Positions 10,105 to 10,195 of a stretch of 64,000 nt of DNA are shown piece by piece (the stretch's first letter is position 1; each line of letters starts with the position of its first letter). This DNA comes from Patescibacteria group bacterium (GTDB lineage: Bacteria > Patescibacteriota > JACPGU01), in assembly GCA_022703645.1 (NCBI GenBank), contig JAKLDG010000001.1, positions 338,814 to 402,813 of the forward strand. The letters are read 5' to 3'. Below the pieces are notes generated by a model, which ran no database searches, had not been told where the DNA came from, and saw only the letters and a list, made by a program, of their open reading frames with translations. Made by a program: the position numbers and the translations under genes.

Positions 10105-10195
10105 ACAAAAATATCCAATACTCAATATCCAATATCCAATCAATAACCAATAAATTAAATATCCAATTGGGTATTGGGTGTTGGATATTGGTCAT
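10105..10195. repeat. CCAATA/TATTGG palindromic repeat cluster (copy 1), upstream of leuS
   Basis: tandem ATATCCAATA units followed by inverted TATTGGATAT units ending ..TATTGGTCATT; related copies at ~15725..15845 and ~61220..61292. Confidence 0.6.

What the first reader, a model, noticed from the sequence alone, without database searches (positions are those of the whole stretch)
10105..10195. Family of CCAATA/TATTGG palindromic repeat clusters in three 5' regions
Three loci (10105..10195, 15725..15845, 61220..61292) each contain several direct ATATCCAATA-like units followed by their inverse (TATTGGATAT), ending in a shared TATTGGTCATTGGA core. They lie upstream of leuS, in the divergent region between the L,D-transpeptidase and the RNHCP gene, and inside the clpC leader. 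Their long imperfect dyad symmetry suggests either a dimeric transcription-factor operator family (a regulon linking leuS, clpC and others) or transcribed stem-loops. They could also be MITE-like elements.
Basis: seen in the sequence. Interest (0 to 1): 0.5.

Follow-up and report, generated by a model that had tools for sequence, protein, structure and literature searches.

The report
Heptamer-built palindromic intergenic repeat family
The three CCAATA/TATTGG clusters are real, related copies of a fast-evolving palindromic repeat made of 7-base units that fills spaces between genes in this tiny-genome (Patescibacteria) bacterium. It looks like a REP/MITE-like or cyanobacterial "STRR"-like repeat, not the binding site of a regulator linking leuS and clpC.

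Summary
All three loci carry tandem 7-nt CCAATNN units followed by their inverse, far beyond chance. The "shared core" is exact in two loci and has 2 mismatches in the third.

Read in the direction of the downstream gene, the copies are homologous. The order is a -10-like box, a short CCAAT arm, a CAATTG centre, then a long ATTGG arm with a shared 4-nt phase skip (ATTG-ATTGG), ending 14-72 nt before the start codon. I found a fourth copy 3 kb past the window end and a fifth, related one at 10485-10612.

The regulon reading fails. The nearest relatives (67-70% LeuS/ClpC identity) have an empty site, a different heptamer palindrome, or an unrelated leader at the same positions. The clpC promoter and CIRCE element are kept in two of the three relatives examined.

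Period-7 arrays are a general feature of this genome's spacers and also occur in frame inside genes. A metagenome scan found the same "CAAT-first" palindrome architecture in contigs of 31-71% GC. One 117-nt element occurs at 93-100% identity in seven contigs (84% in an eighth), with unrelated flanks and an empty site in a relative.

Best reading: a REP/MITE/STRR-like palindromic repeat, co-transcribed as a leader hairpin. Its function is unproven.

The parts
10105..10199 (.). Palindromic heptamer element, copy 1. It is the leuS leader (leuS is on the minus strand). In gene orientation it has 4-5 CCAAT units, a CCAATTGG centre, then about 8 ATTGG units including ATTGATTGG. It ends about 39 nt before the leuS ATG at 10070.
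   Evidence: period 7; alignment; fold -24 kcal/mol on the minus strand, -31 on the plus strand.
15728..15846 (.). Palindromic heptamer element, copy 2, in the divergent YkuD/RNHCP spacer. It has 6 CCAAT-type units (with an internal 25-nt duplication), then 7 ATTGG units including ATTTATTGGTCATTGG. It ends 18 nt before the RNHCP ATG at 15865.
61219..61290 (.). Palindromic heptamer element, copy 3, in the clpC leader downstream of CIRCE. It has 2 CCAAT units, a CAATTG centre, then 7 ATTGG/ATTGA units including ATTGATTGG. It ends 72 nt before the clpC ATG at 61363.
10485..10612 (.). Related palindrome built of CAATTNN/NNAATTG heptamers around a central GC stem-loop (ATCGCaaaGCGAT). It lies between the methyltransferase gene and the 76-aa ORF. 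In gene orientation (minus strand) it has the same polarity and the same ATTGATTGG skip, and it ends about 14-20 nt before the ATG at 10483.
   Evidence: -32 kcal/mol on the minus strand; 8 CAAT units.
10204..10209 (-). A -10-like TATAAT (context TGTAGTATAAT) 5 nt upstream of copy 1 in the leuS direction. The same TGTAGTATAAT context precedes leuS in relative L004, which lacks the element.
   Evidence: This is a consensus match only; no transcription start data exist.
15702..15730 (+). Promoter-like TTGTAA-17-TATAAT that ends 1 nt before copy 2. The predicted start would fall inside the first unit.
   Evidence: 10 of 12 matches. Consensus match only.
61152..61180 (+). Consensus promoter-like TTGACA-17-TATAAT of clpC, upstream of CIRCE and copy 3. 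It is nearly identical in relative L206.
   Evidence: (12 of 12 matches).
61185..61211 (.). Exact CIRCE element (TTAGCACTC-N9-GAGTGCTAA) between the clpC promoter and copy 3. It is context rather than a family member. It shows where the recognisable operator of this leader lies.
   Evidence: 1 match against 0.02 expected. Conserved in L206 and L207.

Best explanation
The three loci, plus two further copies, belong to one dispersed family of non-coding palindromic repeats. Each copy is made of tandem 7-nt units: CCAATNN on one arm and NNATTGG on the other.

**Closest analogues.** They resemble REP/REPIN or MITE-like elements built from cyanobacterial STRR-type heptamers.

**Shown here**
- The copies are homologous and share irregular features that simple repetition would not produce.
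- They occupy spacers that are empty or differently filled in the nearest relatives.
- Equivalent elements elsewhere are dispersed with unrelated flanks.

**Inferred**
- Arrays grow and change by 7-nt slippage or internal duplication, with concerted change of units.
- Whole palindromes are occasionally copied to new spacers, possibly as single-stranded hairpins handled by a Y1/HUH (RAYT-like) enzyme.
- Because they sit between a promoter and a start codon, they are transcribed as the 5' part of the mRNA and fold into a 17-31-bp AU-rich hairpin.
- That hairpin may incidentally affect mRNA stability, RNase III processing or read-through, as REP hairpins do.

They do not define a leuS-clpC regulon.
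For: **Homology of the copies**
- In gene orientation all five copies align. The shared order is a short CAAT arm, a CAATTG-type centre, then ATTGNNN ATTG|ATTGNNN, with the same 4-nt phase skip in each.

**A discrete family in this genome**
- 5 of 50 spacers in 83 kb hold at least 7 CAAT units; the other spacers hold 0-5.

**No positional conservation in relatives**
- L205 (70% LeuS identity) has methyltransferase, 22 nt, small ORF, then TAAATG straight into leuS. Both spacers are empty.
- L004 (69%) keeps the TGTAGTATAAT box but has no CCAAT element. It has an AATTTTT-unit palindrome at the other spacer.
- clpC leaders: L206 keeps the promoter and CIRCE, then has a different heptamer palindrome. 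L207 keeps the promoter and CIRCE, then has GC hairpins. L208 has neither the element nor a CIRCE.

**Heptamer arrays are a general feature**
- Period 7 is the only period enriched in spacers. It gives 29 positions in the 10% of the window that is intergenic; only period 8 (10 positions) and period 15 (3) give any others.
- Heptamer arrays also lie in frame in the MPG, MBL-fold, PheT and PriA genes.

**Same architecture elsewhere**
By a loose count, 48 of 123 hits have a CCAAT-type arm 5' of the ATTGG array, in contigs of 31-71% GC.
- By a stricter count, at least 3 CCAAT lie 5' of the ATTGG array in 24 hits and 3' in 3.

**Evidence for dispersal and in-place growth**
- A 117-nt element occurs at 93-100% identity in seven contigs (84% in an eighth), with unrelated flanks, wedged between a stop and a start codon.
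- At the orthologous dnaE-fpg junction, five relatives carry a 117-nt element, a 20-nt empty spacer, or 55-, 101- and 91-nt heptamer palindromes of other sequence. The 101-nt version equals the 55-nt version plus an internal duplication.

**Other**
- A RAYT-like Y1 ORF lies next to leuS.
- No Rfam family matches.
- Heptameric repeats of unknown function, some in inverted pairs, are documented in other phyla (PMC4692102; PMC4679880).
- (CCAATGA)n arrays occur in Nostoc and Rhizobium plasmids.
Against: - The window's own copies are diverged (51-62% column identity) and differ in unit number, so recent mobility is not shown for them.
- No target-site duplication or conserved flanking tetranucleotide was seen.
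- The RAYT-like ORF is not flanked by the repeats. It scores below the NCBIfam cut-off (59.4 against 80 bits). It also has a TAA at codon 2 relative to its homologues.
- Only 1 of 118 metagenome loci carrying the motif encodes a homologue nearby.
- All five copies have the same polarity toward a start codon, and three are followed by a T5 run in the gene direction. That could indicate a selected leader function rather than selfish DNA.
- A hairpin of some kind recurs at the same spacers in relatives, which could mean that structure, not sequence, is under selection.
- Only 83 kb of a contig of about 867 kb could be examined.
Confidence: 0.58

Rival explanations
1. This is a leader RNA switch. 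The CCAAU/AUUGG hairpin in the 5' UTR, followed by a U run, acts as an attenuator or a translation/stability element. A single-strand-binding protein with a 7-nt footprint reads the AUUGG heptamers and opens the hairpin. Candidates are a cold-shock-domain protein, an S1-domain protein or a similar protein.
For: - Each copy lies between a -10-like box and the start codon, with the long AUUGG arm nearest the gene in 5 of 5 copies.
- ATTTTT runs follow three copies in the gene direction and none in the opposite direction.
- The hairpins are stable.
- Hairpins recur at the same leader position in relatives, with different sequence.
- ATTGG is the Y-box core, and CspB covers a heptanucleotide (PMC1904285).
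Against: - The gene-sense strand is not the better folder in 3 of 4 window copies or in any of the eight 117-nt copies.
- The terminator scan finds no terminator-like site at the elements.
- Among tandem-gene cases in metagenome contigs, orientation is 12 sense to 8 antisense.
- The same arrays occur inside coding genes.
- ATTGG binds Bs-CspB only weakly, with Kd about 5 uM.
- No cold-shock gene lies in the 83 kb examined.
- The element is absent from the orthologous leaders of relatives.
Confidence: 0.17
2. The copies are operator arrays for a DNA-binding regulator that oligomerises on repeated CCAAT/ATTGG heptamers, defining a regulon that includes leuS, RNHCP, clpC and the cyclophilin gene.
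For: - The motif lies immediately downstream of promoter-like -10 boxes, where a repressor would block RNA polymerase.
- The strict "CAAT-first" orientation about a dyad (24 to 3) is the kind of constraint a symmetric protein complex could impose.
- clpC and a cyclophilin both act in protein folding.
Against: - Site length (70-120 bp) and unit number (2-8 per arm) are highly variable.
- There is no conservation at orthologous promoters of relatives, while CIRCE, a recognised operator, is conserved in two of them.
- One related copy is intercistronic, ending about 14-20 nt from an ATG.
- Identical units occur in coding sequence.
- Other spacers carry the same architecture with unrelated units.
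- The downstream genes have no common function.
- No CtsR-type box is present.
Confidence: 0.06
3. The elements are promoter-bearing insertions. The outward-facing TTGGNN(A) units of each arm serve as -35-like hexamers, so the palindrome provides or boosts promoters for the flanking genes in both directions.
For: - The "CAAT-first" arrangement points TTG motifs outward on both strands.
- At copy 2, TTGGAC-16-TATAAT (15820-15847) can be read from the sequence, ending 17 nt before the RNHCP ATG.
- At copy 1 the scan lists TGGATA-16-AATAAT on the leuS strand.
- Palindromic hits in metagenome contigs lie in divergent spacers more often than in convergent ones, 9 to 3.
Against: - Hexamer spacing is inconsistent in the 117-nt copies and at clpC. 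I checked this by eye on the sequences.
- Promoter-like counts do not exceed shuffles.
- clpC already has a perfect consensus promoter upstream.
- Patescibacterial promoter rules are not established.
Confidence: 0.08
4. There is no element at all. The loci are independent local slippage products of AT-rich spacer DNA (plain heptameric microsatellites) that only look related.
For: - Period-7 arrays of many unit types are common in this genome's spacers and genes.
- In-place growth by duplication is visible (L211 compared with L213; the 25-nt duplication in copy 2).
- Units drift in concert at a fixed coding position.
Against: - Five copies share non-periodic features: the ATTG|ATTGG phase skip, the CAATTG centre and the same polarity.
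- Slippage does not explain the inverted arrangement or the 24 to 3 "CAAT-first" bias.
- The 117-nt element is nearly identical at unrelated sites.
Confidence: 0.1

Closest known systems
STRR (short tandemly repeated repetitive) heptanucleotide sequences of heterocystous cyanobacteria, and heptameric intergenic SSRs more generally (Xanthomonas GGGAATC, Nostoc GGGGAYT)
   Same: - The unit is 7 nt, tandemly repeated, mainly intergenic, variable in unit number and of unknown function.
- Some Xanthomonas arrays form inverted pairs (PMC4692102).
- The unit ATTGGTC/TGACCAA in the "core" is a rotation of the (CCAATGA)n arrays I found in a Nostoc plasmid between two ABC-permease genes, and in Rhizobium plasmids.
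- From memory, it also matches Calothrix STRR2 (TTGGTCA).
   Different: - Here the arrays are organised as defined palindromes with a centre, a conserved 4-nt phase skip and a fixed "CAAT-first" arrangement.
- The host is a Patescibacterium with a genome under 1 Mb.
- Units within one array are heterogeneous (ATATCCA, ATACCCA, ATACTCA).
- Whole palindromes appear to be copied between sites.
REP/REPIN sequences and their RAYT (REP-associated tyrosine transposase) genes
   Same: - Short, non-coding, imperfect palindromes confined to spacers and transcribed with neighbouring genes.
- Dispersed copies without target duplications.
- A single-copy Y1/HUH gene whose best NCBIfam match is REP_Tyr_transpos lies 3 kb from copy 1 and is syntenic in a relative.
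- The REPIN concept is described in PMC3116915.
   Different: - The elements are 70-120 nt and built of heptamers, not a 20-40-nt REP.
- There is no conserved GTAG-type foot.
- The RAYT-like gene is not flanked by the repeats, scores below the family cut-off and carries an early TAA.
- Genome-wide copy number is unknown.
MITEs and Rickettsia palindromic elements (RPE)
   Same: - The whole element is an inverted repeat of about 100 nt.
- Close relatives have empty sites.
- A sister 117-nt element occurs at 93-100% identity in seven contigs with unrelated flanks.
- Related heptamer arrays sit in frame inside protein genes (MPG, PriA, MBL-fold), as RPEs do. The RPE property is from memory.
   Different: - No target-site duplication and no parent IS element were found.
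- The window copies are old and diverged.
- The internal heptamer periodicity and in-place growth are not MITE features.
TAACTGA heptamer direct repeats of Beggiatoaceae, Cyanobacteria and Bacteroidetes
   Same: - Heptamer arrays lie a few nucleotides upstream of start codons of functionally unrelated genes.
- The distribution across phyla is patchy.
- Candidate single-strand RNA-binding readers (S1, Csp, CsrA) have been proposed (PMC4679880).
   Different: - Those are direct repeats of one fixed heptamer; only one indirect repeat was reported.
- Here the arrangement is palindromic with variable units.

Membership tests
Transcription-factor operator family / regulon | The site is conserved at orthologous promoters of related genomes. 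| tested here: not met
   - leuS: L205 has no spacer at all, and L004 has a different leader behind the same -10 context.
- clpC: L206 and L207 keep the promoter and CIRCE but not the element; L208 has neither the element nor a CIRCE.
Transcription-factor operator family / regulon | The site has a defined length and symmetry matching a protein oligomer. | tested here: not met
   Arms range from 2 to 8 units and total length from 70 to 120 nt. Copy 2 carries an internal 25-nt duplication.
Transcription-factor operator family / regulon | The target genes share a function, and a cognate regulator exists. | tested here: inconclusive
   The downstream genes are leuS, a 76-aa ORF, RNHCP, clpC and a cyclophilin, with no common theme. 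Only 83 kb of about 867 kb was seen, and no candidate regulator was identified.
STRR / heptameric intergenic simple-sequence repeats | Tandem repetition of a 7-nt unit. | tested here: met
   Tandem Repeats Finder gives period 7 for all arms. Among periods 2-15, period 7 is by far the most enriched in spacers: 29 positions, against 10 for period 8 and 3 for period 15.
STRR / heptameric intergenic simple-sequence repeats | Simple head-to-tail arrays of one unit, in cyanobacteria. | tested here: not met
   The arrays have mixed units and are arranged as palindromes with a phase skip. The host is Patescibacteria.
REP/REPIN-RAYT | A RAYT gene is present and flanked by its REPs. | tested here: not met
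   - A RAYT-like ORF lies at 6579-7040 (Pfam Y1_Tnp 28.6 bits; NCBIfam REP_Tyr_transpos 59.4 bits, below the 80-bit cut-off).
- Its flanks hold no repeat copy.
- It has a TAA at codon 2 relative to its homologues.
REP/REPIN-RAYT | A conserved tetranucleotide (GTAG-type) lies at the foot of the hairpin. | tested here: not met
   GTAG occurs only near copy 1, within TGTAGTATAAT. No shared foot sequence appears in copies 2-5 or in the 117-nt family.
REP/REPIN-RAYT | Tens to hundreds of copies per genome. | not testable with these tools
   There are 5 copies in 83 kb. The rest of the contig of about 867 kb could not be fetched.
MITE | Terminal inverted repeats and a small size. | tested here: met
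   The whole element is an inverted repeat of 70-120 nt.
MITE | Target-site duplication. | tested here: not met
   No duplication appears at the ends of the eight 117-nt copies or of the window copies.
MITE | Near-identical copies in unrelated contexts, and empty sites in relatives. | tested here: inconclusive
   - Met for the sister 117-nt element (93-100% identity in seven contigs with unrelated flanks; an empty dnaE-fpg site in L212).
- Empty sites exist for the window's leuS copies.
- The window copies themselves share only 51-62% column identity.
Intrinsic terminator / attenuator | A G+C-rich stem directly followed by a U tract. | tested here: not met
   The scan finds canonical terminators elsewhere (for example 61114-61131) but none at the elements. 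The stems are AU-rich, and T5 runs follow only 3 of 5 copies.
Described RNA families (Rfam 15) | A match to a covariance model. | tested here: not met
   There are no hits at gathering threshold in the window or in 18 related loci. Only chance-level miRNA hits appear at E > 1.
CtsR operator (heptad direct repeat upstream of clpC; consensus recalled from memory) | RGTCAAA-NAN-RGTCAAA in the clpC promoter region. | tested here: not met
   There are 13 matches with 3 mismatches, against 11.6 expected, and none between 61100 and 61362.

The most novel reading that the evidence does not exclude
The heptamer register is functional. Each 7-nt unit is one binding site for a single-strand nucleic-acid-binding domain with a heptanucleotide footprint, such as a cold-shock or Y-box type OB fold whose classical core motif is ATTGG. 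The "CAAT-first" palindromes would then be protein-operated hairpin switches in mRNA leaders. Cooperative coating of the AUUGG arm would open the stem and control read-through or translation. This mechanism would be shared by very different phyla (31-71% GC). It would explain why heptamers, of all periods, are over-represented in bacterial spacers.
Probability: 0.06. Interest if true: 0.75.

Novelty: new variant of a known kind. Interest (0 to 1): 0.38.

Why it matters
Heptameric intergenic repeats have been noted since 1990 in cyanobacteria, and later in Xanthomonas and Beggiatoaceae, but have no accepted function or origin.

This case adds several things:
- The repeats occur in a Patescibacterium with a genome probably under 1 Mb, where spacers are so short that one element is essentially the whole spacer.
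- They are organised as defined palindromes with a strict "CAAT-first" arrangement.
- The same gene junction carries different heptamer palindromes in close relatives.
- Arrays sit in frame inside conserved genes, with concerted drift of the units.

Together these make origin and turnover (in-place slippage against copying) directly testable by comparative genomics.

For annotation, the practical point is negative. The motif should not be read as evidence for a leuS-clpC regulon. The recognisable regulatory site of the clpC leader is the adjacent CIRCE element.

Tried and rejected
- **Rfam.** I searched the whole window and 18 related loci at gathering threshold, and copy 2 at E up to 10. Only tRNAs and chance miRNA hits appeared.
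- **tRNA or tmRNA association.** None in the window. tRNAs in related loci are not adjacent to the elements.
- **CtsR box at clpC.** At chance level, with none in the leader.
- **RAYT co-occurrence.** Only 1 of 118 motif-bearing metagenome loci (L177) and L004 encode a homologue. The Y1 gene in L212 is an ordinary IS200-type TnpA, not the RAYT-like type.
- **Strand test for an RNA function.** The minimum free energy favours neither the gene-sense strand in the window nor the sense strand in the 117-nt family. Among the eight 117-nt copies, one-sided changes are mostly C-to-U that keep G-U pairs on the sense strand. There are too few independent events to use, and only 1 compensatory pair.
- **Orientation relative to genes in metagenome contigs.** 12 sense to 8 antisense in tandem settings, which is not informative. 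ORF calling in high-GC contigs was crude.
- **Terminator reading.** The scans find no terminator-like site at the elements, and one copy is in a divergent spacer.
- **Literature search for the literal sequences.** Only unrelated eukaryotic primers turned up. No paper on such repeats in Patescibacteria was found.
- **Strain variation.** Contigs from three samples are 100% identical over 10-20 kb, so no unit-number polymorphism was visible.
- **Closer relatives for empty-site analysis.** None exist in the collections; the next LeuS is 70% identical.

Full report
**1.

- Each has a run of CCAAT-containing units on the plus strand, followed by a run of ATTGG-containing units.
- Tandem Repeats Finder assigns period 7 to every arm.
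- The repeat finder reports inverted arms of 17-31 nt at 75-100% complementarity.

The pattern is well beyond chance.
- The 14-mer core with up to 2 mismatches occurs 5 times against 0.70 expected.
- Three 120-nt windows hold at least 6 CCAAT/ATTGG. Only 2 of 200 Markov simulations produced any such window.

Two corrections apply. The core is exact in two loci only; 10186 reads TATTGGTCATTCCA. The repeating unit is a heptamer.

Gene context is as stated.

**2. Source organism**

The window is the reverse complement of part of a 205-kb metagenome contig from JGI sample 3300009776. The same proteins also lie on an 867-kb contig annotated "Patescibacteria group bacterium". The closest LeuS and ClpC in the collections are only 67-70% identical. 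Contigs from three samples are identical over the loci.

**3. The copies are homologous and polar**

When each locus is read in the direction of its downstream gene (leuS on the minus strand), the copies align. The shared order is:
- a -10-like TATAAT box;
- a short CCAAT arm;
- a CAATTG-type centre;
- a long ATTGG arm containing the same irregularity, ATTGNNN-ATTG|ATTGNNN (a 4-nt phase skip; ATTT in copy 2);
- 14-72 nt of AT-rich sequence;
- the start codon.

Extending the sequence by 10 kb on each side revealed a fourth copy before a cyclophilin gene (L202:15758-15823). The palindrome at 10485-10612 has CAATTNN units around a central GC stem-loop, with the same skip and polarity.

In a census of 50 spacers over 83 kb, these five hold 7-11 CAAT units and all others hold 0-5.

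**4. They are one type within a general habit of the genome**

Among periods 2-15, period 7 is by far the most enriched. It gives 29 high-scoring positions in the 10% of the window that is intergenic; only period 8 (10 positions) and period 15 (3) give any others.

Other spacers carry heptamer palindromes with different units:
- GTAAAAT/TTTTACA around ATGCCaaaGGCAT at 30590-30682;
- further arrays at 26930, 28731 and 24919;
- a TTCTAAA/TTTAGAA palindrome upstream of the window.

Heptamer arrays also lie in frame inside genes:
- an extra stretch of about 25 aa in the methylpurine glycosylase gene (36361-36477);
- PheT;
- a PriA linker in L177;
- one position of an MBL-fold gene. There, four relatives have arrays of ATTTNAA, ATTGAAA or four perfect ATTGGAA units at the same codons.

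**5. Orthologous sites in relatives argue against an operator**

*leuS region*
- In L205 the methyltransferase, small ORF and leuS are packed with 22 nt and 0 nt between them. Both spacers are empty.
- In L004 the TGTAGTATAAT context before leuS is kept, but the leader is unrelated. The other spacer holds an AATTTTT-unit palindrome.

*clpC leader*
- L206 keeps the TTGACA-17-TATAAT promoter and a near-consensus CIRCE, then has a palindrome of ATCTNAA/TTNAGAT units.
- L207 keeps the promoter and an exact CIRCE, then has GC-rich hairpins.
- L208 has neither the element nor a CIRCE.

The recognisable operator of this leader is CIRCE (exact at 61185-61211). No CtsR-type box is present.

**6. The same architecture occurs elsewhere**

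- By a loose count of CCAAT-type units within 120 nt, 48 of 123 hits have an arm upstream of the signature. These contigs range from 31% to 71% GC.
- By a stricter count, at least 3 CCAAT lie 5' of the ATTGG array in 24 of 110 hits and 3' in only 3.
- This is a strand-symmetric "CAAT-first" rule that slippage alone does not explain.

One low-GC group is a 117-nt element, AATGACCAAAC...CATTGGGATTT.
- It occurs at 93-100% identity in seven contigs (84% in an eighth), with unrelated flanks.
- It is wedged between a stop codon and a start codon, with no target duplication.
- It folds at -32 to -51 kcal/mol on either strand.

At its dnaE-fpg site, close relatives (Fpg 77-87% identical; the best named relatives are Magasanikbacteria) show a series:
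- a 20-nt empty spacer;
- a 55-nt mini-palindrome;
- a 101-nt version of that palindrome with an internal duplication;
- an unrelated 91-nt heptamer palindrome.

Direct (CCAATGA)n arrays occur in Nostoc and Rhizobium plasmids.

**7. What is known**

No Rfam family matches.

The literature held here records the following:
- Heptameric repeats are over-represented in bacterial spacers.
- They occur in Calothrix, Nostoc and Xanthomonas, sometimes as inverted pairs, with no established function (PMC4692102).
- TAACTGA heptamers lie upstream of start codons in Beggiatoaceae (PMC4679880).

I found nothing on such repeats in Patescibacteria, and none of the literal sequences appear in relevant papers.

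**8. Mechanism**

*Shown*
- The copies are homologous.
- The sites are lineage-specific.
- Arrays grow in place by duplication.
- Whole palindromes are dispersed in a sister family.

*Inferred*
- The elements are transcribed as mRNA leaders. Promoter-like boxes are, and the -10 context is conserved in L004.
- They form long AU-rich hairpins.
- Their effect is that of a REP-like stem-loop.

A Y1/HUH gene whose best match is the REP-associated tyrosine transposase family lies next to leuS and is syntenic in L004. It is below the family cut-off, is not flanked by repeats and has a TAA at codon 2. A role in mobilisation is only a lead.

*Features that keep a leader-switch reading alive*
- The common polarity of the copies.
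- T5 runs after three copies.
- The recurrence of some hairpin at the same spacers in relatives.

Strand-specific folding does not support that reading. Covariation is uninformative.

**9. Verdict**

The regulon interpretation is not supported. The elements are best filed as a palindromic, heptamer-built variant of known intergenic repeat classes (STRR, REP, MITE). Their function is unproven and their turnover is unusually visible. Interest is moderate.

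Noticed in passing
window 61185-61211: An exact CIRCE element (TTAGCACTC-N9-GAGTGCTAA) lies between a consensus promoter and clpC. This implies HrcA-type control of clpC in this Patescibacterium. It is conserved in relatives L206 (near-consensus) and L207 (exact) but absent in L208.
   Followed up: partly
window 6579-7139 (- strand): A RAYT-like Y1/HUH ORF lies directly downstream of leuS. It scores 28.6 bits against Pfam Y1_Tnp and 59.4 bits against NCBIfam REP_Tyr_transpos (cut-off 80). 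It is syntenic in L004. Relative to the L004 and L177 homologues (M-P/Q-NKNRKSIR...), the window reads ATG-TAA-KENKNRRSIR..., an early stop or a non-canonical start.
   Followed up: partly
window 36361-36477 (inside ORF 36030-36707): The DNA-3-methyladenine glycosylase gene carries an in-frame, heptamer-rich extra segment of about 25 aa between the conserved LIRA and NGPG blocks. Part of it matches the arm of the 117-nt element family.
   Followed up: partly
L202:12993-13031 (3-400 nt past the window end); L208:5795-5835; L206 and L207 MBL genes: The same codon positions of an MBL-fold hydrolase gene are encoded by a heptamer array in four relatives. The units differ: ATTGAAA here, four perfect ATTGGAA in L208, and ATTTNAA in L206 and L207. 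The units, and with them the protein sequence, drift in concert.
   Followed up: partly
window 30590-30682; 26930-26979; 28731-28761; 24919-24970; 11567-11609: Further spacers hold heptamer arrays or palindromes built of other units (GTAAAAT/TTTTACA, AATTTTT and others). The one at 30590 surrounds a GC stem-loop (ATGCCaaaGGCAT), and a promoter-like TGACAA-16-TATAAT overlaps its left arm.
   Followed up: partly
L127:6840-6956 and seven other metagenome loci (L089, L103, L113, L121, L162, L171, L182): A 117-nt palindromic element (AATGACCAAAC...CATTGGGATTT) occurs at 93-100% identity in seven contigs (84% in L162), at unrelated sites in low-GC, probably Patescibacterial, contigs. It fills the whole spacer between a stop and a start codon. 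The orthologous dnaE-fpg spacer is empty (20 nt) in L212.
   Followed up: yes
L177:2900-2990 (inside ORF 1265-3343, - strand): A direct array of ATATCCA/ATTGGAT heptamers lies in frame in the linker between the 3'-DNA-binding and helicase domains of a PriA gene. The contig also encodes a RAYT-like homologue.
   Followed up: partly
L203:5700-5740 (window coordinate about -3631 to -3591): An (ATTGRAA)n heptamer array lies in frame in the pheT gene, encoding ...IENWKLEIENS...
   Followed up: no
window 7161-10070 and 5307-6152: LeuS carries a NUDIX domain hit inside the synthetase, a feature shared by most of its Patescibacterial homologues. The NusB gene is fused to a NUDIX domain.
   Followed up: no
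window 46501-57534: A single 3677-aa ORF whose only recorded Pfam hit is Laminin_G_3. It is probably a giant surface protein.
   Followed up: no
L209:1490-1580 (Nostoc sp. C052 plasmid) and L210:1500-1560 (Rhizobium sp. N324 plasmid): Long, perfect direct (CCAATGA)n arrays. In Nostoc the array lies between two ABC-permease genes of one operon. The unit is the same as in the window's "core" but without the palindromic arrangement.
   Followed up: partly
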